Assembly: GCA_963843145.1 (NCBI GenBank)
Contig: CAWJJC010000005.1
Location: 160,001-224,000, forward strand
Direction of reading: 5' to 3'
Length of the DNA stretch: 64,000 nucleotides
Source of the DNA: an uncultured delta proteobacterium
GTDB taxonomy: Bacteria > Desulfobacterota > RBG-13-43-22
This document shows positions 765-11,011 of this stretch, piece after piece; within the stretch, counting starts at the first letter, position 1, and every line of letters begins with the position of its first letter. The notes below the pieces were generated by a model, which searched no databases, was not told where the DNA came from, and saw only the letters and a program-made list of their open reading frames with translations. Made by a program: the position numbers and the translations under genes.

Positions 765-2270
765 CTAGGGGGAGAGTTTTTCGGCATACCGACCCGGATC
801 TTTCTCGAAACGGGCCCGGTTCTCGGCGGAAGCGAAATAATAAACTTTTTGATTGTAGGTACTTTTAAGCCCCGCCTTCTCCGCCTTTCGTATGGACACC
901 TCCACACCGGATACCGGGTCGTTCTTCAGCGAACCGCTCATCCCGGCAGCGGCCAGGTCCATCCGGCTTTCGGAGTCGAGGAGAAAGGTACCGGAGGCGG
1001 CGATCCGTTCCCCGGCGGACAACCCTTGAACAATTTCAACCCGGTCACCGAAACGCCGGCCGATCTTAACTTCCCGGGGCTCGAAAAACCCTTGGCCCTG
1101 AGCCATAAAGACCGTTTTTTTAAGACCGGTATCGAGGACCGCATCCACCGGTACGATAATCGCCGGAGGGCCGCTGATAGGAATCTCAACATTGACAAAC
1201 ATATCAGGGCGCAGGATAAAACCGGGGTTGTCTGCCTCCAATCTCAATTTCAAGGTCCTGGTCGTCGGGTCGAACTCGGGCAGGACCTTGCTTATTCGGC
1301 CAACAAAGGTTTTATGGAGATAGGGAAGCTCCATCGTTACCCGTCTCCCGGGTTGGTATAAAGAGGTCTCGTTTTCAAAGATATCGGCCACGATCCAAAC
1401 CTTGGACAGATCCGCAATGCGGAAAAACTCCAACCCTCGGTCGAAACGCAGTCCCGGAGAAACATTTCGCGAGAGAATGAATCCGTTGATCGGAGAGCGG
1501 ATTTCAATGTCATCGGCGACCATTCCGCCCTTTTCCATTTCGTCAATCTGATGTTCGGATATCCCAAAGTTGAGCAGTGACTTTTTGTAATAATACTTTT
1601 GCGAGGCATCACTGGTAAAGTTGAGGTCCCGCGTGACATCCCTCAAAACATCCCTCATGGGTTTAAATTGACTCGGGCTCAGCCGGAGGTCCTTTTCTTC
1701 TCCTTTGGTTTCGGGGACCCCGGGTTTCTTGGTGCCCGGGGACACCGATCTAGTGGTTCCTGCGGGCGCAAGCCTACTGGTTCCTGGAGGCGCAAGCCTG
1801 GTGGCTCCTGGAGGCGCAGGCCTATTGGTTTCTACGGCTGCAGGATTGGTGGATCGGATTAAGTTTAGATAGACTTGAACCGTGGTCCGATAATCCACGG
1901 AGTAAAAGGTGGCCAAGAGCTCATTTTTCTTAACTAAGCTTCCGGTAGTGACCGGCTGAACATCCTCAATCCAACCGTTAAGGGCGGCGTTGATTCGGAA
2001 GACCCGGTTTTCATCCGGCGTTACCCTGCCCAGCACCCGCATGGTATAGCTCCAGGGAGCCTTTTCCACCGTGACTACTTTAACGCCGATCATCTGCTGT
2101 TTTTCCGGGCTCACTTTCACGGCCCCCGGCGGCAGGTCCTCTTCATCGCCGCCGGATACTATCCGGGCAGGGCTGCTCTTGGGAGCCGCCTGCCGGTTAT
2201 GCCTGGAAATCGCTACATAGGATCCGACCGCCACCAAAATCAGTATAATAAGATAAATGACTTTTTTCAC
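765..2270 (-). CDS. Efflux RND periplasmic adaptor (CusB/CzcB-like) with C-terminal YHS-like domain
   Basis: N-terminal TM anchor; GWIE..GSLVKK, ADLSKVWIVADIFE, TRTLKLRLE and LRPDMFV motifs; DPVSG...YYFAS C-terminus. Confidence 0.85.
   Translation of the reverse strand: MKKVIYLIILILVAVGSYVAISRHNRQAAPKSSPARIVSGGDEEDLPPGAVKVSPEKQQMIGVKVVTVEKAPWSYTMRVLGRVTPDENRVFRINAALNGWIEDVQPVTTGSLVKKNELLATFYSVDYRTTVQVYLNLIRSTNPAAVETNRPAPPGATRLAPPGTSRLAPAGTTRSVSPGTKKPGVPETKGEEKDLRLSPSQFKPMRDVLRDVTRDLNFTSDASQKYYYKKSLLNFGISEHQIDEMEKGGMVADDIEIRSPINGFILSRNVSPGLRFDRGLEFFRIADLSKVWIVADIFENETSLYQPGRRVTMELPYLHKTFVGRISKVLPEFDPTTRTLKLRLEADNPGFILRPDMFVNVEIPISGPPAIIVPVDAVLDTGLKKTVFMAQGQGFFEPREVKIGRRFGDRVEIVQGLSAGERIAASGTFLLDSESRMDLAAAGMSGSLKNDPVSGVEVSIRKAEKAGLKSTYNQKVYYFASAENRARFEKDPGRYAEKLSP
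1731..1820 (-). repeat. 24-bp (8-aa) tandem repeat inside the adaptor gene
   Basis: APPGATRL-APPGTSRL-APAGTTRS-VSPGTKKP. Confidence 0.8.
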
Positions 2271-2396
2271 TTAAATCTCCTGCCTGCAACAGCCACAAGG
2301 CTGACTTCTTTTTAACCCTCAGGCCCCCGAAGGACACCCCGAAACAGGTAAACGCCTTTGGCCAAGGGCCGGTCGCCCTAGGCCTTCGGTCAGGCT

Positions 2397-2534
2397 GTCA
2401 TTCTGAGCTCTTCACCAGCTTGTCAGCCTGAGTGAAACGAAGGATCTCGGTTCCCAGCTCAGCTTAAACTCCGCAAAGGATCAGCTCACGGGCTGCCTGA
2501 GGGATCCTTCAGTCGTTTCGCTCCTTCAGGAGGT
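2397..2534. repeat. REP-like element (GTCATTCTGAG...GAAGGATC type)
   Basis: gtcattctgag...ctgagtgaaacgaaggatctc and the inverted arm gggatccttcagtcgtttcgctccttcagg. Confidence 0.5.
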
Positions 2535-2729
2535 CTATTTTCGTATTAGCCCCCCATGCTTGGGGCTGGGCACTCATGCCGCATGAAGATCCCGCGTCCC
2601 CTCACCCATACTTGACATAATAATATACGTTTAAAGCGATTTCCTGTCAACCCTTTGAAGAAAACTCATCCCTCAGCCGGCTCCATTTCTTGGTCGCCCG
2701 GTCAGCCATCATCGGAGGGAAAAGGTCGA

Positions 2730-3689
2730 TTAGGAATTCAGGGAGGCCCCCAGAATCTTAATCTTTTTTGGTAATATTTCAAACCGCACCGACAGACGGC
2801 CCACCAGTTCCCCGTCCATATCGATAAACACCTCTTCCTCCGATTCCAGGCTGATGGTTTGGGCCTGAAAGGTTTGGACTTTGGGATGGCCGGATAAAGT
2901 GCCTCGGTAGAGGCGGCGGGTATTGGTTAACACTTCCATCCGGGAAACGTCGCCGACCACCACTACCTCCAAAAACCCGTCATCCATCCGGGCCGGTGGG
3001 GCCACCCACATGCCGCCCCCGAAATACTGCCCATTGGCAATAACGATGGAACTGGCCTTGACCTCGAAAGGCGGGCGGTCGTCCAGACCGATCCGAATGC
3101 GCTTATTCCGATATTGGAGAAGGGTAACTAAAAGTCCGCGGAAGAAACTGAGTTTACCTCCCCAGCGCTTGCTGTGACTGTTCACATAGCGGACCAGGTC
3201 CCCCCCAAAGCCGACATCGGTAACATTTAAAAAATGCCTCCGGCAAGGATTGCCGTTCAGATCAAGAAAGCGGGCCACCCCCACATCGATCTTCCGAAAA
3301 ACATTTCCGCCAGCCTGTTGAGCGGCCACGGTTAAAGAATGAGAGATGCCCAGCGTCCGGACCAGGTCGGCCCCGGTGCCGCAGGGCAGGATGGCCAGGT
3401 CCGTATCCTCAAACCTCGGATGGGCCAATAATCCGTTGAGCACCTCATTGACTGTGCCGTCGCCCCCGTGCACCACCACCGTGGGGTACCCCTGTTCAAC
3501 CGCCTGGTAGGCCAGGTCCGTGGCTTGATGGGGGGCGTCCGTGGTCCAGGCCGTAAAGGGAGGAAGGAGGCTTCGAAGAAGCGGCTCATTCTTCGACCAA
3601 TCACGTCCGGTCCGGCCGTCGGCGCTCACCGGATTGACGATTACGACCCAGGAGGGTCGGTCCTTGGGGTCTTGTGCGGATTTGGTCAT
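2730..3689 (-). CDS. Diacylglycerol kinase family lipid kinase (YegS/BmrU-like)
   Basis: IVNPVS, GGDGTVNE, LPCGTGAD, ANGQYFGGGM and DMDGE motifs. Confidence 0.9.
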   Translation of the reverse strand: MTKSAQDPKDRPSWVVIVNPVSADGRTGRDWSKNEPLLRSLLPPFTAWTTDAPHQATDLAYQAVEQGYPTVVVHGGDGTVNEVLNGLLAHPRFEDTDLAILPCGTGADLVRTLGISHSLTVAAQQAGGNVFRKIDVGVARFLDLNGNPCRRHFLNVTDVGFGGDLVRYVNSHSKRWGGKLSFFRGLLVTLLQYRNKRIRIGLDDRPPFEVKASSIVIANGQYFGGGMWVAPPARMDDGFLEVVVVGDVSRMEVLTNTRRLYRGTLSGHPKVQTFQAQTISLESEEEVFIDMDGELVGRLSVRFEILPKKIKILGASLNS

Positions 3690-3753
3690 AGGCGACTAAA
3701 TAAACATCGAACTTCGAACATCGAACGCCCAACCTTGAATGAAAATATGACGC

Positions 3754-4067
3754 TTCGCCCTTTTGGGTGGGTATCCCCAGATCTGGTATGGCCGTCTGGT
3801 CTCGGCAAAAGGGTTTCCCACCTTGCTTTACAGGTTCGGAACCCGGCCCAAATGTTTCTAAATCTTCACGGAGGCAGGGCCAGCCCGAGGAAGCGTCAAA
3901 AGCCTCTGAGTTTGGGCCTGCTGCAAATAAAATTACTAATTTCGGCCCGGGGTCGAACTCCGGGGACCCTTTGGAAAACCCTTTCGCCGAGATCAGACGG
4001 CCACGAAGGCCTGAATATTCAGTCTAATGCTAACAGATATCGTGGCCCCCCACCCAGAAATGGCGAA
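3754..4067. mobile_element. MITE-like element, copy 1
   Basis: Terminal inverted repeats ttcgcccttttgggtggg / cccacccagaaatggcgaa plus an internal inverted repeat; homologous to 33298-33523. Confidence 0.65.
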
Positions 4068-4967: not shown

Positions 4968-5250
4968 AGGTAATACGAAAATAGGGCACAGGGTATAAGG
5001 TTCAAGGTATAAGGTTTGGAGAATACCATTTTAATGCTTCGTGGGTGCCCCGCGGGGCATGTGGGTTTAGTATGTAAATAAGCCTCTATGACCTGCAATA
5101 AGGCCAATAATCAATTGTCAATGATCAATTGATTATTGATTATTGATATCCTGCGGTTAAACAGTTGTCTCGCCCCTTTTATTTTTATGCTACGAGGGTA
5201 CCCACCAGGGGCCTAGTGTTTAACTCGGGGCTAAAATACCATTTTTCCCC

Positions 5251-5278
5251 TTGACATTCCACCAGGATCATTTAAATT
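5251..5278 (+). promoter_or_regulatory. Sigma70-type promoter of the small peptide ORF
   Basis: TTGACA at 5251-5256, 16-bp spacer, TAAATT at 5273-5278. Confidence 0.55.
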
Positions 5279-5320
5279 TTAATATAACAAACATCGCACG
5301 AAGCGAGAAAGGGGCCGGTC

Positions 5321-5383
5321 ATGAAGATCCGCAAAGTGGTTAAGGTATCCAAAGGTCTTTGCAAGTGTAAAAAGACCTGCTAA
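5321..5383 (+). CDS. Putative RiPP precursor peptide, 20 aa (MKIRKVVKVSKGLCKCKKTC)
   Basis: ATG 5321 to TAA 5383; RBS AAAGGGG upstream; promoter before and terminator after; lies upstream of an RRE-radical SAM/SPASM gene. Confidence 0.75.
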   Translation: MKIRKVVKVSKGLCKCKKTC

Positions 5384-5400
5384 AAGAAATTTACTATTTC

Positions 5401-5435
5401 AAAAAAGGCCGATAGTTGATCTGTCGGCCTTTTTT
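5401..5435 (+). terminator. Intrinsic terminator/attenuator after the precursor ORF
   Basis: AAAAAA-GGCCGATAG-ttgat-CTGTCGGCC-TTTTTT. Confidence 0.85.
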
Positions 5436-5465
5436 ATTCCAAAACCTAAATGAGATGGTTTTGCA

Positions 5466-5825
5466 ATGCCCAAAACCGATTTCCAAGATTATATCTGCCG
5501 GCCCTTCTGCGATTTTTTTAAGCCGAGGGTCAAAGAAGAGCTGACCTGCCGGGGGGCGCTGCTGGTGGAACACCTGGTCCGGCGCCGGCGTCTCATCCCC
5601 GGAGACTTCCAGAGCCTGGAAAAAAGCGAATCGTTATTCCCGGGCCAAGAGGCCGATTTGGAAGCCGCTGTTTGCCGGGGCTGTCCTTTCCAAGCCGAAG
5701 ATTGTGATTTTATGTCCGCCAATCCGCCATCCGACTGTCGGCCCTGCGGCGGATTGGTTCTCCTGCGGCAGCTCACGAAAAAAGGGTTGATCACCATCCC
5801 GGACCTATTCCATGACGACAACTGA
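5466..5825 (+). CDS. Cys-rich hypothetical protein (possible Fe-S/Zn binding) coupled to the radical SAM gene
   Basis: 8 Cys in two similar modules; overlaps the rSAM start by 14 nt. Confidence 0.7.
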   Translation: MPKTDFQDYICRPFCDFFKPRVKEELTCRGALLVEHLVRRRRLIPGDFQSLEKSESLFPGQEADLEAAVCRGCPFQAEDCDFMSANPPSDCRPCGGLVLLRQLTKKGLITIPDLFHDDN

Positions 5826-6990
5826 TTGGCAGGAATCCTTCCTCTCCTTGCATCCCCGGGTTTTCCTCAAACGCCTGGAACAGCCCTATCTTTATCACCT
5901 GGACCGGGATGAATTGTACGAAATCGACGAACAGGCCCTTCTTTTCTTAAGCCTTTGTGATGGAACCACCCAAGGAAAATCCCTGACCGGCGATGCGGAA
6001 TTCGTTTCTTTTTGTCTGGAGGAAGGGCTCTTGGAAACCAACAGCCAACCGATCCTCAAGAACGTCTCCATCGGAGAAGCCCCCGTTCCTTCTCTGCGTT
6101 ACCTGGAGCTGCAACTGCTCCACCAATGCAATCTGCGCTGTCGACATTGCTATCTGGGTCCACCCCGCCCCGGGCGGTTGTCCTTGGAAGAGGCCGTCAC
6201 CATCACCCGGGAATTTGCCGCCCGGGGCGGCTTGCGGCTTTTGATTTCCGGGGGCGAACCCCTGCTTTATCCCGAACTCCCCTCCTTCCTGGCGCAGACC
6301 CAGGGCCTGGGCATCCGTCGTATTCTCTTAACCAATGGGACCCTGCTCACTACGGAAAGCCTCCTCCAACTTCAGGTGGAAGAGATTCAGGTCAGCCTGG
6401 ACGGCTGGCGCACGGGTCACGAAGCTATCCGGGGTGTAGGGACCTTCGATCAAACCCTTAAGGGTCTCCTGGCCGCCCGGGAAGCCGGACTGCCCATTGC
6501 CATCGCCACCATGGTTCATCGGAAGAACCTGGTTGAATTCGATCAACTGGCCCGTCTGGTAAAAGAGATCGGGGCTGTTGAATGGGGAGTGGATGTGCCC
6601 TGCCTGGCAGGTTCTATGAAAGAACATTCCGATCTACTGGTCCCTTACGAAGAGGCCGTCCCCTTTCTAAATTTTTCCTTTGGGGGGGGCTATCACGGCT
6701 CCGCGGAGGGATATGCCTGTGGACGCCATTTGCTGACGGTGTTACCCGGCGGGCAGGCGGTAAAGTGCGGCTTCTATGAAGAGCAGATCCTGGGAGATGC
6801 TCGCCGGGGCCTGATCGAATGTTGGCTAAAGCTTCAACATATCCCGCTGGAAAAACTGGAATGCCGGGGGTGTCCGGCACTCGAGGAGTGCGCCGGGGGA
6901 TGCCGTTACCGGGCCGATCATCCTTTCGGTCGGGACCCGCTGATGTGCGCCCTGTATGAAGTGGCGGGGGATAGACCTTTAACACATTAG
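5812..6990 (+). CDS. Radical SAM/SPASM peptide maturase with N-terminal RRE (PqqD-like) domain
   Basis: CNLRCRHC (Cx3Cx2C), SGGEPLL, TNGTL, VSLDG; SPASM Cx15C...Cx2Cx5Cx3Cx14C; N-terminal YLY..DELYEIDEQA..FLSLCDGT RRE-like pattern. Confidence 0.9.
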   Translation: MTTTDWQESFLSLHPRVFLKRLEQPYLYHLDRDELYEIDEQALLFLSLCDGTTQGKSLTGDAEFVSFCLEEGLLETNSQPILKNVSIGEAPVPSLRYLELQLLHQCNLRCRHCYLGPPRPGRLSLEEAVTITREFAARGGLRLLISGGEPLLYPELPSFLAQTQGLGIRRILLTNGTLLTTESLLQLQVEEIQVSLDGWRTGHEAIRGVGTFDQTLKGLLAAREAGLPIAIATMVHRKNLVEFDQLARLVKEIGAVEWGVDVPCLAGSMKEHSDLLVPYEEAVPFLNFSFGGGYHGSAEGYACGRHLLTVLPGGQAVKCGFYEEQILGDARRGLIECWLKLQHIPLEKLECRGCPALEECAGGCRYRADHPFGRDPLMCALYEVAGDRPLTH

Positions 6991-8025: not shown

Positions 8026-8141
8026 CGGTGAACGTCCAACATCGAATGTCAAATGGAGGTTTGTTTTTCATTCGAAGTTGGGCGTTCGATGTTCAATGTT
8101 CGTCTAGCATTTCGAATTTTATATTTACCCATTAAGGATCT

Positions 8142-9806
8142 ATGATCTCTAGCCGACATCTTCGCCTATTGTCTTTTGTCCTGCTGTTCTATTGTCTAAT
8201 CCCTCAAATCTCCTGGGGTTCTACTCCCGACACCTCTTTTTGTACCGATCCGGAAAACCTATTAGTCCTTCGGCTTTATTATCAATCGCCGAAGAATCTC
8301 AAAGCCGTCGCCGCCCAATATGATATCTGGGAGGCCCATCCCGAAGAGGGTTTTGTGGTCATCGGCACCCGCTGTGGGGAATTGGAAAAAATCAGCGGTC
8401 AGGGCTGGACGGTGAAAATCGACCCCACCTTGACTCGGGAGACCAGGGCCAGTCTGCTCGGAATTCCCAAATTCCCCTGTTATCGGAGCGTGGAAGAGAC
8501 CTTGGCGGTCCTTAAAAACCTGGCCGCCGACTATCCGGCCTTAACCGACCTCATCACTATCGGCCAGAGTTGGGATAAAAGCACCTCCGAAGGACCTGCA
8601 GGATTCGATTTACAGGCCCTCCGGATAACCAATAAGCAGATACCAGGACCCAAACCGGTTTTTTTCCTGATGGCCGCCATCCATGGCCGTGAATTAACCA
8701 CCTCGGAAACCGCTCTCCGTTTAGCCGAAACCCTGTTGCAACAGTATGGGGTCAACCCTGAGATCACCCTGCTCCTGGATTACCAGGAAATTCAGGTGGT
8801 CCCCCTGATGAACCCCGACGGCCGAAAGTGGGCCGAACAAGGTTATCTTTGGAGGAAAAATACCGATTCCCTCTGGGGGTGTACCTTTCCAAACTTTGGG
8901 GTCGATCTGAATCGCAACCATTCCTTCCACTGGGGAGGCGCCGGCGACGCTCCCTGCGATGAAATCTATCAAGGACCCGCGGCGGCTTCGGAACCGGAGA
9001 CCCAGGCCCTGCAAAATTATGTTCGCCTCCTTTTTCCGGATCAGCGCGGTCCTTTGGATACAGATCCCGCCCCGGTAGACACTGCCGGCATCTTTGTCAC
9101 CCTCCATTCCTACGGCAGATTGGTTCTCTGGCCCTGGGGCTGGACCGATCAATTCCCGGCTCCCAACGACGCTCAACTCCAGGCGATCGGCGTTAAACTG
9201 GCCTCCTTTAATCACTATACCCCCAAGCAATCAAGCCTTCTGTATCCCGCTACCGGGACTTCCGATGACTGGGCTTATGGTGAGATGGGGATAGCCTCTT
9301 TTACCTTTGAAATGGGAACACAATTTTTCCAGGATTGTTCGAGTTTTGAAGCCACTATCTGGCCGGACAACTTGAAAGCCCTGCTTTATGCTTTCAAAAT
9401 CGCCTCCGCACCCTACCGCCTGGCCTACGGCCCGGATGCCTTGTCCCCCCTGGTCAATCCCCCTTGGGGCAAACAGGGGGAACCTCTTGAACTGACCGCC
9501 CTGATCTCCGACCAGCAGATTGGAGGGCTTTCCCTCCAGCAGGCGGAATATTTCATTCTCTCCGAACATCAGGCAAATCCCCCCGGCACTCCCGGGACCG
9601 GACTACCCCTGACGCCAACCGACGGTCAATGGGATAGCCCGATTGAAACGGTCAGGGCCGTCATTGATACCGCCCATCTGGTCCCCGGGAATTACTTGAT
9701 CGCCCTGCGGGGCCAGGATGTGGATGGAAACTGGGGCCCTCTCACCGCGACTTCTTTGCGGATTCGCTATGACTACCAGTTATTTTTCCCCATCTTCTTG
9801 AATTAG
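8142..9806 (+). CDS. Secreted M14 zinc carboxypeptidase (carboxypeptidase T-like)
   Basis: Signal peptide; IHGRE, NPDG, WRKN, GVDLNRN, LHSYG and FTFE motifs. Confidence 0.9.
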   Translation: MISSRHLRLLSFVLLFYCLIPQISWGSTPDTSFCTDPENLLVLRLYYQSPKNLKAVAAQYDIWEAHPEEGFVVIGTRCGELEKISGQGWTVKIDPTLTRETRASLLGIPKFPCYRSVEETLAVLKNLAADYPALTDLITIGQSWDKSTSEGPAGFDLQALRITNKQIPGPKPVFFLMAAIHGRELTTSETALRLAETLLQQYGVNPEITLLLDYQEIQVVPLMNPDGRKWAEQGYLWRKNTDSLWGCTFPNFGVDLNRNHSFHWGGAGDAPCDEIYQGPAAASEPETQALQNYVRLLFPDQRGPLDTDPAPVDTAGIFVTLHSYGRLVLWPWGWTDQFPAPNDAQLQAIGVKLASFNHYTPKQSSLLYPATGTSDDWAYGEMGIASFTFEMGTQFFQDCSSFEATIWPDNLKALLYAFKIASAPYRLAYGPDALSPLVNPPWGKQGEPLELTALISDQQIGGLSLQQAEYFILSEHQANPPGTPGTGLPLTPTDGQWDSPIETVRAVIDTAHLVPGNYLIALRGQDVDGNWGPLTATSLRIRYDYQLFFPIFLN

Positions 9807-9931
9807 TCCTCCCCTTGACAGATTCTTTTTGGTGCTTAATTTAAAGATCAGTTAATTGAACCCGCCCAAAACAGGGGGCAACGAGCCGGGTTACTTTTAG
9901 GGTAAACCCGGCTTTTTATTTGGGGATAACC

Positions 9932-11011
9932 ATGATAGCAACGAAAACCTCGACTTTGAAACACGGTTCGGCCCTGGAGAGCCTTATCTCTGAGGATGCT
10001 TTTTCGCGATCGGACGAAACCGATGATCGGGAATTTTACTCCCGGGACCGCTTCGTCTCCCACCTGGATTCCTTAGCCCTGGCCACCGTTGAGAAAATCA
10101 TTGGGGACCTGGTGGTGGAAAAGCAGCCGATCATTTTAGACCTCATGTCCGGTTGGGATTCCCATCTCCCGGAAGGGTTCCAGCCTGCCCGTCTGGTCGG
10201 TCTGGGCTTAAATGAAAATGAACTTCAAATGAACAAAGCCCTGACGGAATACCGCCTTCATGACCTGAACCGGGACCCGATTCTCCCTTTTCCGGATCAG
10301 ACCTTTGATGTGGTGCTCAATACCTTGTCGGTTGATTATTTGACCAACCCACTGCGGATCTTTGAAGAGGTGAACCGGGTGCTGAAACCCGGGGGATTAT
10401 TTCTGGTTATTTTTTCCAATCGGATGTTCCCCGAGAAGGCGGTCAGGATCTGGCGGGAGGCCAACGAAGAAGAGCGAGTTTTTCTGATCCAGGATTTTTT
10501 TAAGGAAGCTTCACATTTTGAAAAACCGGGGCTTTTTGTTTCTAAAGGAAAACCCCGGCCCCAAGACGACAAATACGCTCACTTGGGCATCGCCAGCGAT
10601 CCCATTTACGCAGTCTTCGCCGACAAGGTCGGCGGGGATTCAAATCGAAAAAAAAGGAGAATCACCATGTCGACCGTCAACCGTAAGCTCAGTCCGGAAG
10701 AGTTAAGAGAAATAGAAAAGGAAGTTAAAAATACCCTTTGCTGCCCTTACTGCGGGGAAAAAATGAAAAAATGGGCCGTTCCCGACAATCCCTTTTCTCA
10801 GACCTGGGACAATGATTTTATGTACATCTGCTTCAACGACGCCTGCCCCTATTATGTCCGGGGCTGGGATCACATGGCCCGAGAAGTGCAAAGAAGTGTT
10901 TCCTATCGACTCATGTACAACCCCGAGCGGGATTATTGCCTGCCCATTCCCGTTCCGACGCCCTTTGCCTTAAAGGAGGGAATTGTCGAGCAGGACGAAT
11001 GCGGCAAATAA
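9932..11011 (+). CDS. Class I SAM methyltransferase fused to a C-terminal zinc-ribbon domain
   Basis: DDREFY..RFVSHLD, LDLMSGWDSH, SVDYL, FSNRMFPEKAV; C-terminal CPYCG...CFNDACPYY. Confidence 0.8.
   Translation: MIATKTSTLKHGSALESLISEDAFSRSDETDDREFYSRDRFVSHLDSLALATVEKIIGDLVVEKQPIILDLMSGWDSHLPEGFQPARLVGLGLNENELQMNKALTEYRLHDLNRDPILPFPDQTFDVVLNTLSVDYLTNPLRIFEEVNRVLKPGGLFLVIFSNRMFPEKAVRIWREANEEERVFLIQDFFKEASHFEKPGLFVSKGKPRPQDDKYAHLGIASDPIYAVFADKVGGDSNRKKRRITMSTVNRKLSPEELREIEKEVKNTLCCPYCGEKMKKWAVPDNPFSQTWDNDFMYICFNDACPYYVRGWDHMAREVQRSVSYRLMYNPERDYCLPIPVPTPFALKEGIVEQDECGK

What the first reader, a model, noticed from the sequence alone, without database searches (positions are those of the whole stretch)
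5251..6990. Candidate new RiPP system: 20-aa Lys/Cys precursor, Cys-rich partner and RRE-radical SAM/SPASM maturase
Seen in sequence: an ORF too short for the ORF track (5321-5383) encodes MKIRKVVKVSKGLCKCKKTC, with 7 Lys, 1 Arg, no acidic or aromatic residue, and a C-terminal CxCx3C. It has a TTGACA promoter, an AAAGGGG RBS and a terminator hairpin (5401-5435). Two overlapping genes follow, the second a radical SAM enzyme with a full SPASM Cys set and an N-terminal extension of about 75 aa. Established: a precursor, a leaky terminator and an RRE-rSAM/SPASM gene is the layout of ranthipeptide/sactipeptide loci such as SCIFF/CteB, where the hairpin gives excess precursor over enzyme. Inference: the extension is an RRE, and the enzyme makes Cys-thioether crosslinks in an unusually tiny cationic core. 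The lack of aromatic residues argues against cyclophane chemistry. No transporter is adjacent, so the product may act intracellularly, for example as a signal, metal ligand or cofactor precursor. I do not recognise this as a characterised family.
Basis: partly seen in the sequence, partly recalled or inferred. Interest (0 to 1): 0.88.

Follow-up and report, generated by a model that had tools for sequence, protein, structure and literature searches.

The report
Conserved 20-residue peptide with radical-SAM maturase
A tiny 20-amino-acid gene, too short for gene finders, travels through many anaerobic microbes together with a radical-SAM enzyme and a new cysteine-rich helper protein, so it is most likely an undescribed enzyme-modified peptide that stays inside the cell.

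Summary
The 63-nt ORF at 5321-5383, the strong hairpin at 5401-5435, the 119-aa Cys-rich gene and the overlapping 392-aa radical SAM/SPASM gene are all present.

The micro-ORF is a real gene:
- 41 of 55 rSAM-ortholog loci carry a 20-21-aa ORF ending in the CKC..(S/T)C motif, each with a Shine-Dalgarno site.
- 13 of the other 14 genomes carry it elsewhere.
- All differences between the window and a locus with a 71%-identical enzyme are synonymous.
- In 401 genomes of the phylum, peptide and enzyme each occur in 44, and 43 have both.

The gene lies upstream of the enzyme in some lineages and downstream in others, which excludes a leader-peptide attenuator.

The AlphaFold model (pLDDT 93.9) aligns over its whole length with SuiB, including SuiB's N-terminal peptide-binding domain. 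The Cys-rich partner is a new all-helical family, sometimes fused to the enzyme. No NCBIfam, Pfam or literature description was found.

The thioether chemistry and an intracellular role remain inferences. I call it a new variant of the rSAM peptide-maturation kind, interest about 0.6.

The parts
5251..5278 (+). sigma-70-like promoter (TTGACA, 16 nt, TAAATT) of the micro-ORF
   Evidence: Consensus scan, 10 of 12 matches. The -35 box and 5' UTR are conserved in G000, G002, G001 and G004. Function is not shown. A contig from an RNA library starts 27 nt upstream of it.
5308..5314 (+). Shine-Dalgarno-like AAAGGGG, 6 nt before the ATG
   Evidence: Sequence. GGAGG-like sites precede the micro-ORF start in the 38 loci listed.
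5321..5383 (+). 20-aa peptide gene. The N-terminal half (M-x-I-[KR]-K-[VIL]-x-[KR]) is the proposed recognition part. The C-terminal CKCxx(S/T)C is the proposed core.
   Evidence: ORF. Orthologous ORFs are in 41 of 55 rSAM loci. I3, C14, K15, C16 and C20 are invariant; position 19 is always S or T; K5 has one R. Only synonymous changes separate it from the G004 copy. It is the single copy in G000.
5401..5435 (+). intrinsic-terminator-like hairpin with U-run between the peptide gene and the partner gene
   Evidence: -24.1 kcal/mol, z = -7.5. The stem is conserved in 4 genomes. MFE z <= -2.5 in 34 of 41 loci; most listed folds show a GC stem with a T-run.
5466..5825 (+). 119-aa Cys-rich, all-helical partner protein (new family, 7 invariant Cys)
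   Evidence: No Pfam or NCBIfam family. C11, C15, C28, C70, C73, C80, C94, G95 and G96 are invariant in 22 sequences. AF2 pLDDT 82.4, helices only. Best PDB match Z 4.7. 264 cluster representatives. Fused to the rSAM in several proteins.
5812..6990 (+). 392-aa radical SAM/SPASM enzyme with an N-terminal RRE-like domain
   Evidence: PF04055, E = 3.6e-21. Best NCBIfam 88 bits against a cut-off of 500. AF2 pLDDT 93.9. Best structural neighbours are SkfB, SuiB, anSME and CteB.
5839..6042 (+). RRE-like winged-helix domain (aa 10-77) with two nearly invariant Cys (C49, C68)
   Evidence: Predicted strands 17-21, 25-29, 34-37, then helices 40-47, 55-58, 62-70. It is aligned together with the rest of the enzyme on SuiB chain 1-439. 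C49 and C68 are >= 90% conserved. Sequence-level tests were negative or inconclusive.
6127..6150 (+). CX3CX2C radical-SAM cluster motif (C106, C110, C113)
   Evidence: Invariant in 56 orthologs.
6718..6948 (+). SPASM-type auxiliary-cluster Cys set (C303, G314-x4-C319, C351-x2-C354-x5-C360-x3-C364, C379)
   Evidence: Invariant Cys. The C-terminal domain aligns with anSME (model 94-385, Z 24.4), CteB and SuiB. The Pfam SPASM model itself did not hit.

Best explanation
This is a conserved three-part peptide-maturation system.
1. A separately transcribed 63-nt gene makes a 20-residue, strongly basic peptide.
2. An RRE-like N-terminal domain of a radical SAM/SPASM enzyme most likely binds the peptide's conserved N-terminal half (M-x-I-[KR]-K-[VIL]-x-[KR]).
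3. The enzyme, which has one SAM cluster and two auxiliary clusters, then acts on the invariant C-terminal CKCxx(S/T)C motif. The most probable reaction is one or more intramolecular Cys thioether cross-links, as in sactipeptides and ranthipeptides.
4. A 119-aa all-helical protein with seven invariant Cys works as an accessory subunit of the enzyme. It probably binds a metal or an Fe-S cluster.

No protease or exporter is conserved with the system, and the whole peptide is conserved. The product therefore probably stays in the cytoplasm uncleaved.

Shown here: the gene is real and under protein-level selection; it co-occurs with the enzyme and the partner; the folds are as described; partner-enzyme fusions exist.

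Inferred: that the peptide is the substrate (about 0.7), the thioether chemistry (about 0.35), the metal binding of the partner, and the intracellular role.
For: Real gene:
- A 20-21-aa ORF lies beside the rSAM ortholog in 6 of 6 related genomes.
- It also lies beside it in 35 of 49 ortholog loci from public contigs (38 of the 41 re-extracted, L032, L034 and L062 taken).
- All 38 re-extracted copies have GGAGG-like sites upstream.
- The window and the G004 copy differ at 8 of 63 nt. All are third positions, 7 synonymous plus TAA to TAG, while the enzymes are 71% identical.
- Across 38 copies, differences by codon position are 4221/4334/7830.

Linkage:
- In 41 relatives, the peptide pattern occurs in exactly the 6 genomes that hold the enzyme ortholog, with 0 control hits.
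- In 401 genomes of the phylum, 44 have the pattern and 44 have the enzyme (E <= 1e-60); 43 have both. The two exceptions are one odd pattern match (G236) and one enzyme gene at a contig edge (G242).
- 41 of those 43 have both on one contig within about 1.6 kb.
- Of the 14 loci without an adjacent peptide gene, 13 genomes have it elsewhere.
- The gene order differs. The peptide gene is upstream in 17 loci and downstream in 24. The partner gene is divergent in Nitrospirota.

Enzyme:
- CX3CX2C and the seven SPASM Cys are invariant.
- AF2 pLDDT is 93.9.
- VIA-align: SkfB Z 26.8; SuiB Z 25.6, rmsd 3.7, 353 residues, model 10-382 on chain 1-439, which includes SuiB's N-terminal domain; CteB Z 23.6.
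- Strand and helix order in residues 17-70 is beta-beta-beta then helices. [quoted passage not shown]

Partner:
- It is found in most loci.
- 10 longer proteins of 433-571 aa match it and carry PF04055. P0202 and P0266 have the partner at the N-terminus followed by Radical_SAM.
- L027 is one 510-aa partner-enzyme ORF.

No exporter or protease recurs among 55 loci.
Against: - No experiment shows any modification. The chemistry rests on analogy with the nearest solved enzymes, which include a C-C cross-linker (SuiB) and an oxidase (anSME) as well as thioether formers.
- The RRE has no sequence support. Pfam PqqD hits 0 of 36 N-domains. The PDB profile search gave nothing better than E = 0.42. 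hhalign against PqqD proteins of relatives gives probability 9.1% over 32 columns. The predicted domain also has two extra short strands (50-54, 74-77).
- The Pfam SPASM model did not hit.
- A 20-residue peptide leaves about 13 residues for recognition. Conservation of the full length, unlinked copies in 13 genomes and second copies with CKCH would equally suit an unmodified metal-binding peptide or a small subunit.
- The only RNA-library evidence is one 151-nt contig (5224-5374). It may be DNA, and it starts upstream of the predicted promoter.
Confidence: 0.6

Rival explanations
1. The Cys-rich 119-aa protein, not the 20-aa peptide, is the substrate. This would resemble the Crp system, where a SPASM rSAM installs thioethers in a Cys-rich protein. 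The micro-peptide would then have another role.
For: The partner has seven invariant Cys and is encoded directly before the enzyme, overlapping it by 14 nt. CrpC of Methanococcus voltae installs ranthionine links in the Cys-rich protein CrpA (PMC13692751: abstract; section 8).
Against: - The partner is fused to the N-terminus of the enzyme in several proteins, which suits a subunit better than a substrate.
- It is predicted as a compact helical fold (pLDDT 82.4), without the repeated Cys motifs described for CrpA.
- Short forms in Archaeoglobus, Dehalococcoidia and Actinomycetota keep only the C-terminal half with 3-4 Cys.
- This reading leaves the near-perfect peptide-enzyme co-occurrence unexplained.
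Confidence: 0.12
2. The peptide is not modified. It is a very small metal- or Fe-S-binding peptide (mini-metallothionein-like CKC..C), or a small subunit or cofactor carrier that works with the enzyme-partner pair on some other substrate.
For: - The whole 20 residues are conserved, not only a core.
- No leader protease is conserved.
- Unlinked and duplicated copies exist.
- One lone copy lies divergent from a MerR-family regulator gene.
- Two nearly invariant Cys in the N-domain (C49, C68) and seven in the partner could share a metal site with the peptide's three Cys (inference).
Against: The enzyme's nearest solved relatives by sequence and fold are peptide-modifying SPASM enzymes with an N-terminal peptide-binding domain. 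No other candidate substrate gene is conserved in the neighbourhood.
Confidence: 0.15
3. The micro-ORF is a regulatory leader peptide. Its translation, together with the hairpin, attenuates transcription of the downstream operon.
For: In the window, a short ORF followed by a strong terminator-like hairpin lies directly upstream of the two genes.
Against: - The micro-ORF lies downstream of the enzyme in 24 of 41 loci.
- It is on another contig or far away in 13 genomes.
- The amino-acid sequence, not only the RNA, is conserved, with only synonymous change.
- The hairpin follows the ORF in both arrangements.
Confidence: 0.02

Closest known systems
SCIFF peptide with its maturase CteB/Tte1186 (ranthipeptides; features recalled; fold comparison with PDB 5wgg/5why done here)
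   Same: - A Cys-rich, highly conserved short peptide sits next to an RRE-rSAM-SPASM enzyme.
- No dedicated exporter or protease is present.
- It is widely spread among anaerobes and its physiological role is unknown.
- CteB is a top structural neighbour (Z 23.6, model 91-383).
   Different: - The peptide here is 20 aa, not about 45, and has 3 Cys, not 6. It is extremely basic, and no sequence similarity is evident.
- The enzyme matches no NCBIfam maturase model above its cut-off (best 88 bits).
- A third component, the Cys-rich helical partner, is present.
- The taxa differ: Desulfobacterota, Nitrospirota and others rather than Clostridia (the latter recalled).
Streptide system SuiA/SuiB (PDB 5v1q/5v1s/5v1t)
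   Same: SuiB gave the best full-length structural alignment that includes the N-terminal RRE domain (Z 25.6, rmsd 3.7, 353 residues). It is also the top Foldseek hit (E = 2.1e-15).
   Different: SuiB links Lys to Trp (recalled), and the peptide here has no aromatic residue. Identity is 18%.
Sporulation killing factor maturase SkfB (PDB 6efn)
   Same: It is the best sequence hit among solved structures (E = 2.8e-20) and has the highest structural Z (26.8). It is a thioether-forming peptide maturase.
   Different: Only the rSAM core aligns by sequence (residues 99-255). Its substrate and operon, with exporter and immunity genes (recalled), have no counterpart here.
PQQ (PqqA/PqqD/PqqE) and mycofactocin (MftA/B/C) cofactor systems
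   Same: Both use a very short conserved precursor of about 20-30 aa (recalled) and an rSAM/SPASM enzyme with an RRE function. The product stays in the cell, and the distribution among genomes is patchy.
   Different: - PqqE and MftC models score 61 and 60 bits against cut-offs of 381 and 265.
- No further tailoring enzymes or peptidase are conserved here.
- The core is Cys/Lys/Ser rather than Glu/Tyr or Val/Tyr (recalled).
Crp system of Methanococcus voltae (CrpA/CrpC; PMC13692751)
   Same: It pairs a SPASM rSAM carrying a predicted RRE with Cys-rich partners encoded alongside. Thioether (ranthionine) formation was shown for CrpC (abstract).
   Different: There the substrate is a large repeat-containing Cys-rich protein, and the enzyme belongs to TIGR04463 (section 8). 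Here there is a 20-aa peptide plus a small helical Cys protein without repeats.

Membership tests
Radical SAM superfamily (PF04055) | CX3CX2C cluster motif and the TIM-barrel-like core | tested here: met
   PF04055 E = 3.6e-21, 76.5 bits against a cut-off of 29.5. C106, C110 and C113 are invariant in 56 sequences. The core aligns with many solved rSAM enzymes at Z > 19.
SPASM subfamily | C-terminal seven-Cys motif for two auxiliary [4Fe-4S] clusters (CX9-15GX4C ... CX2CX5CX3C ... C; motif recalled) | tested here: met
   C303-x10-G314-x4-C319, C351-x2-C354-x5-C360-x3-C364 and C379 are all invariant. The C-terminal domain aligns with anSME up to model residue 385 and with CteB and SuiB. Caveat: the Pfam SPASM model gave no hit at E <= 1.
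RiPP recognition element (RRE, PqqD-like) | [quoted passage not shown] | tested here: inconclusive
   Predicted order: strands 17-21, 25-29, 34-37; helices 40-47, 55-58, 62-70; plus two extra short strands. It was aligned as part of the full model on SuiB residues 1-439. The domain was not folded and searched alone.
RiPP recognition element (RRE, PqqD-like) | Sequence similarity to PqqD (PF05402) or another known RRE | tested here: inconclusive
   Pfam hit 0 of 36 N-domains at E <= 10. The PDB profile search gave nothing better than E = 0.42. hhalign against 16 PqqD proteins gave probability 9.1%, E = 0.0036, 32 columns in the expected register. RREs are described as sequence-divergent.
Named NCBIfam peptide-maturase families (StsB, ScmE/F, PqqE, MftC, GeoRSP, ACGX, AlbA, WgkB and others) | Score above the curated cut-off of the model | tested here: not met
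   The best of 68 matched families is AhbD, 88.2 bits against a cut-off of 500. All 25 families listed lie far below their cut-offs.
Sactipeptide / ranthipeptide class | Cys sulfur to alpha-, beta- or gamma-carbon thioether installed by the rSAM | not testable with these tools
   Needs mass spectrometry of the modified peptide. Only fold and sequence neighbours (SkfB, CteB) point this way.
Transcription-attenuation leader peptide | Short ORF always upstream of, and in cis with, the regulated operon | tested here: not met
   The ORF is downstream of the enzyme in 24 of 41 loci and unlinked in 13 genomes.

The most novel reading that the evidence does not exclude
The 20-residue peptide is the precursor, or already the final form, of an unrecognised intracellular peptide-derived cofactor or metallopeptide, for example a thioether-caged thiol or metal site on a polycationic tail. 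It would be shared by anaerobes of at least five bacterial phyla and an Archaeoglobus. It would be made by a three-part enzyme whose Cys-rich helical subunit is a new fold. In standing it would be comparable to PQQ or mycofactocin rather than to a secreted antibiotic.
Probability: 0.2. Interest if true: 0.85.

Novelty: new variant of a known kind. Interest (0 to 1): 0.62.

Why it matters
- The peptide gene is 63 nt long. As far as I recall, this is below the default minimum of common gene callers, so the family may be largely absent from protein databases.
- The peptide occurs in about one genome in nine of a whole phylum sample (44 of 401).
- It also occurs in contigs labelled Nitrospirota, Dehalococcoidia, Nannocystaceae, Actinomycetota and Archaeoglobus.
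- It gives the rSAM/RiPP field a compact and very conserved substrate-enzyme pair with a new accessory protein.
- It points to an unknown piece of physiology in sulfate reducers, syntrophs and magnetotactic Nitrospirota.
- If the product is a cofactor or metal ligand rather than an antibiotic, it would add to the very short list of peptide-derived cofactors.

Tried and rejected
- Complex prediction of the enzyme (A3) with the partner (A2) returned 'no answer', score 0.00. It is not used either way. The 20-aa peptide was not sent because the tool asks for chains of 30 residues or more. I did not use the longer 33-aa reading of the L005 ORF to get round that.
- Sequence tests for a PqqD-type RRE were negative or inconclusive.
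- The partner has no Pfam or NCBIfam family apart from a weak FmdB zinc-ribbon hit at E = 0.0072, below its cut-off. No clear solved fold was found; the best is Z 4.7, the XpsE N-domain. The ESM Atlas gave only 'hypothetical protein' clusters.
- Neighbourhood clustering of 55 loci found no conserved exporter, protease or further tailoring enzyme. The only recurring neighbours were a rubrerythrin-like gene (10 loci), a cupin-like gene (9), 2-oxoacid:ferredoxin oxidoreductase (8) and a TPR protein (8). Most of this is probably shared synteny among relatives.
- Genes beside unlinked peptide copies are heterogeneous.
- Sequencing runs: 15 runs hold small shares. Laying four of them gave only contigs. 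One RNA-library contig covers 5224-5374, and there is no cover from 5383 to 6846 in that run. This cannot rank expression or prove transcription.
- Rfam found only two tRNAs in the window, far from the locus.
- Of the 80 loci (L070-L100, E >= 3e-30, partial matches to the rSAM core only) were dropped as other rSAM families before any count.
- The first HMM iteration for the partner was polluted by the L027 fusion and pulled in rSAM genes. Partner calls were therefore read by eye from that list and not counted exactly.
- Five literature searches found no description of this peptide, partner or enzyme family. These were search listings only, except PMC13692751 (abstract and section 8) and PMC12710340 (passages). 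Subscription journals are not covered. Supplements are closed, so Supplemental Data set 1 of PMC13692751 (rSAM-associated Cys-rich proteins in bacteria) could hold the partner family and I could not see it.
Full report
WHAT IS THERE. The window (G000, contig C5, 160001-224000) holds, on the + strand:
- a sigma-70-like site at 5251-5278;
- AAAGGGG at 5308-5314;
- a 63-nt ORF at 5321-5383 encoding MKIRKVVKVSKGLCKCKKTC;
- a hairpin at 5401-5435 of -24.1 kcal/mol (z = -7.5, 0 of 200 shuffles as stable) followed by a U-run;
- a 119-aa Cys-rich ORF at 5466-5825;
- a 392-aa ORF at 5812-6990, overlapping the previous one by 14 nt.

The last ORF is a radical SAM protein (PF04055, E = 3.6e-21). No NCBIfam model comes near its cut-off: the best is AhbD at 88 bits against 500, and all peptide-maturase models listed are far below theirs. 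The partner and the peptide match no family.

IS THE MICRO-ORF A GENE? Yes.
- Among 41 related genomes, orthologs of the enzyme (E < 1e-100) occur in six. All six have a 20-aa ORF of the same kind plus a 118-132-aa Cys-rich ORF next to the enzyme gene.
- A scan of one genome per species returned 80 loci. 49 of them (L021-L069, E <= 2e-44) are orthologs. They come from contigs labelled Desulfobacterales and relatives, Geobacteraceae, Desulfarculaceae, Nitrospirota/Thermodesulfovibrionia, Ca. Magnetobacterium, Dehalococcoidia, Nannocystaceae, Actinomycetota (Ca. Solincola) and Archaeoglobus. The other 31 loci match only the rSAM core and were dropped.
- 35 of the 49 loci hold the micro-ORF, which makes 41 of 55 with the six relatives.
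- In the 38 copies re-extracted by script, every one is preceded by a GGAGG-like site. I3, C14, K15, C16 and C20 are invariant, position 19 is S or T, and K5 has one R.
- The window's copy and that of G004 (enzyme 71% identical) differ at 8 of 63 nucleotides. All are third positions: 7 synonymous changes plus the stop codon.
- Over all copies, differences fall 4221/4334/7830 on codon positions 1/2/3.

This is protein-level purifying selection.

IS IT TIED TO THE ENZYME? Yes.
- A degenerate DNA pattern for the peptide's C-terminal half hits exactly the six enzyme-bearing genomes among the 41 relatives. It hits none of the other 35, and its reversed control hits nothing.
- In an even sample of 401 genomes of the phylum, the pattern occurs in 44 and the enzyme ortholog (E <= 1e-60) in 44. 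43 genomes have both.
- The one pattern-only genome (G236) has an atypical match. The one enzyme-only genome (G242) has the enzyme gene starting at base 3 of its contig.
- In 41 of the 43, the two lie on one contig within about 1.6 kb. In G077 and G177 they lie on different contigs.
- For the 14 public loci without an adjacent micro-ORF, 13 genomes have it elsewhere (5 of 5, 5 of 5 and 3 of 4). The exception (L061) again has the enzyme at a contig edge. So 54 of 55 enzyme-bearing genomes have the peptide gene.
- Kin are not independent. However, gene order varies: the peptide gene is upstream in 17 loci and downstream in 24, and the partner gene is divergent in Nitrospirota. Simple inherited synteny is therefore not the explanation, and a leader-peptide attenuator is excluded.
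- A stable hairpin, usually with a T-run, follows the micro-ORF in both arrangements (MFE z <= -2.5 in 34 of 41). The peptide gene thus looks like a small transcription unit of its own. Whether the window's hairpin is 'leaky' is not tested.

THE ENZYME.
- In 56 orthologs, CX3CX2C (C106/110/113) and seven C-terminal Cys in the SPASM spacing are invariant. Two Cys of the N-terminal domain (C49, C68) are at least 90% conserved.
- The AlphaFold2 model is confident (pLDDT 93.9, pTM 0.92).
- Foldseek ranks SuiB, SkfB and CteB first.
- VIA-align gives SkfB Z 26.8, SuiB Z 25.6 (rmsd 3.7, 353 aligned, model 10-382 on chain 1-439), anSME Z 24.4 (model 94-385) and CteB Z 23.6 (model 91-383).
- The roughly 90-residue N-terminal extension is therefore laid on SuiB's N-terminal peptide-binding domain. 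Its predicted element order is three strands followed by helices. This fits the structural definition of an RRE given in PMC12710340 (passage), apart from two extra short strands.
- Sequence methods do not see it: Pfam PqqD hits 0 of 36, the PDB profile search finds nothing, and hhalign against PqqD proteins from related genomes gives probability 9.1%. I rate the RRE as likely but not proven.

THE PARTNER.
- It has seven invariant Cys (C11, C15, C28, C70, C73, C80, C94) and a C-terminal PCGG-x-LL-x-x-LL helix.
- The predicted fold is all-helical (pLDDT 82.4), with no convincing solved relative (best Z 4.7).
- The family has 264 cluster representatives at E <= 0.001 and 206 at <= 1e-10, mostly 100-150 aa.
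- Short forms of 64-80 aa, holding only the C-terminal half, accompany the enzyme in the Archaeoglobus, Dehalococcoidia and Actinomycetota loci.
- It is fused in front of the enzyme in L027 (510 aa), in ten longer proteins with PF04055, and in P0202 and P0266.
- Open frames of 500-572 aa around the enzyme in nine further genomes suggest more fusions, which I did not check.

Fusion and translational overlap argue that the partner is a subunit, not the substrate. Its Cys pattern suggests a metal or Fe-S site (inference).

MECHANISM. The best-supported reading is a RiPP-like system.
- The peptide's conserved N-terminal half is bound by the RRE-like domain.
- The invariant CKCxx(S/T)C end is modified by radical chemistry.
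- Thioether formation is the most likely reaction. The nearest relatives include SkfB and CteB, and the core offers three Cys and no aromatic residue.
- SuiB-type C-C chemistry on the invariant Lys15, or anSME-type oxidation of Ser19 or Cys, cannot be excluded.
- There is no conserved exporter or protease, and the whole peptide is conserved. This suggests an uncleaved intracellular product.
- Rivals are that the partner is the substrate (as CrpA is for CrpC; PMC13692751), or that the peptide is an unmodified metal-binding subunit.

KNOWN OR NEW. By architecture it belongs to the known kind 'RRE-rSAM/SPASM enzyme plus short precursor'. It fails the membership tests for every named maturase family in NCBIfam 20.0. 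Its partner has no Pfam family. Five literature searches found no description. I call it a new variant of a known kind. Its closest analogues in logic are SCIFF/CteB and the PQQ and mycofactocin precursors.

LIMITS.
- No biochemical data exist.
- Most genomes are MAGs with submitters' taxon labels.
- The pattern search misses variants, for example those ending in an extra G or A.
- Supplements of papers could not be read.
- The expression evidence is one contig in an RNA library.

Noticed in passing
L034 minus strand 2370-3794; protein P0153: In one Nitrospiraceae locus the partner domain is the C-terminal end of a 475-aa protein with a response-regulator receiver, a PAS domain and a partial HisKA_3 domain. 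A second database protein of 474 aa has the same architecture. This may be a real sensor fusion or a gene-fusion accident.
   Followed up: partly
L005 2649-2993, L006, L061 936-1307; protein P0223: A roughly 120-aa cupin-like gene directly follows the enzyme gene in 9 of 55 loci. One database protein fuses the partner to a Cupin_2 domain (E = 2.6e-4). It may be an optional fourth component. It is absent next to the window's cassette.
   Followed up: partly
L022 5145-6116, L023 1761-2762, L034 7407-8225, L039 6409-7440: A second, different rSAM gene of about 270-340 aa with its own C-terminal Cys motif lies downstream of the enzyme in four loci.
   Followed up: no
G240:C80:20626-20842; L101/L106 (G043); L102/L107 (G045); G414, G415: Some genomes carry two peptide genes, one with CKCK and one with CKCH in the core. 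In G240 they are tandem, 166 nt apart.
   Followed up: no
L107 592-1002 (minus) and 1489-1551 (plus); L102 1954-2445: One unlinked peptide gene lies divergent from a MerR-family regulator gene, and another lies next to an Hsp20 gene. These are single cases with no pattern.
   Followed up: partly
window 3703-3745 and 8030-8102: A palindromic intergenic repeat brackets the 4.3-kb segment that holds the cassette (38-nt arms, 89% complementary). It is dispersed over the genome: 33 and 56 short blastn hits, on at least 10 contigs. It is therefore REP-like, not the ends of a mobile element.
   Followed up: yes
G000:C5:88458-90417 (outside the window): There is another candidate peptide-maturation cluster in the same genome: two rSAM genes and a PqqD-family gene side by side.
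   Followed up: no
window 8142-9806 and 9920-11011: A secreted-looking M14 zinc carboxypeptidase and a methyltransferase with an Ogr/Delta-like zinc finger lie downstream of the cassette. The methyltransferase is also next to the cassette in G004, but neither recurs in distant loci.
   Followed up: partly
window 5105-5147: An AT-rich palindrome (ATCAATTGTCAATGATCAATTGATTATTGAT) lies about 100 nt upstream of the peptide promoter. It may be an operator or the terminator of the upstream DUF167 gene.
   Followed up: no
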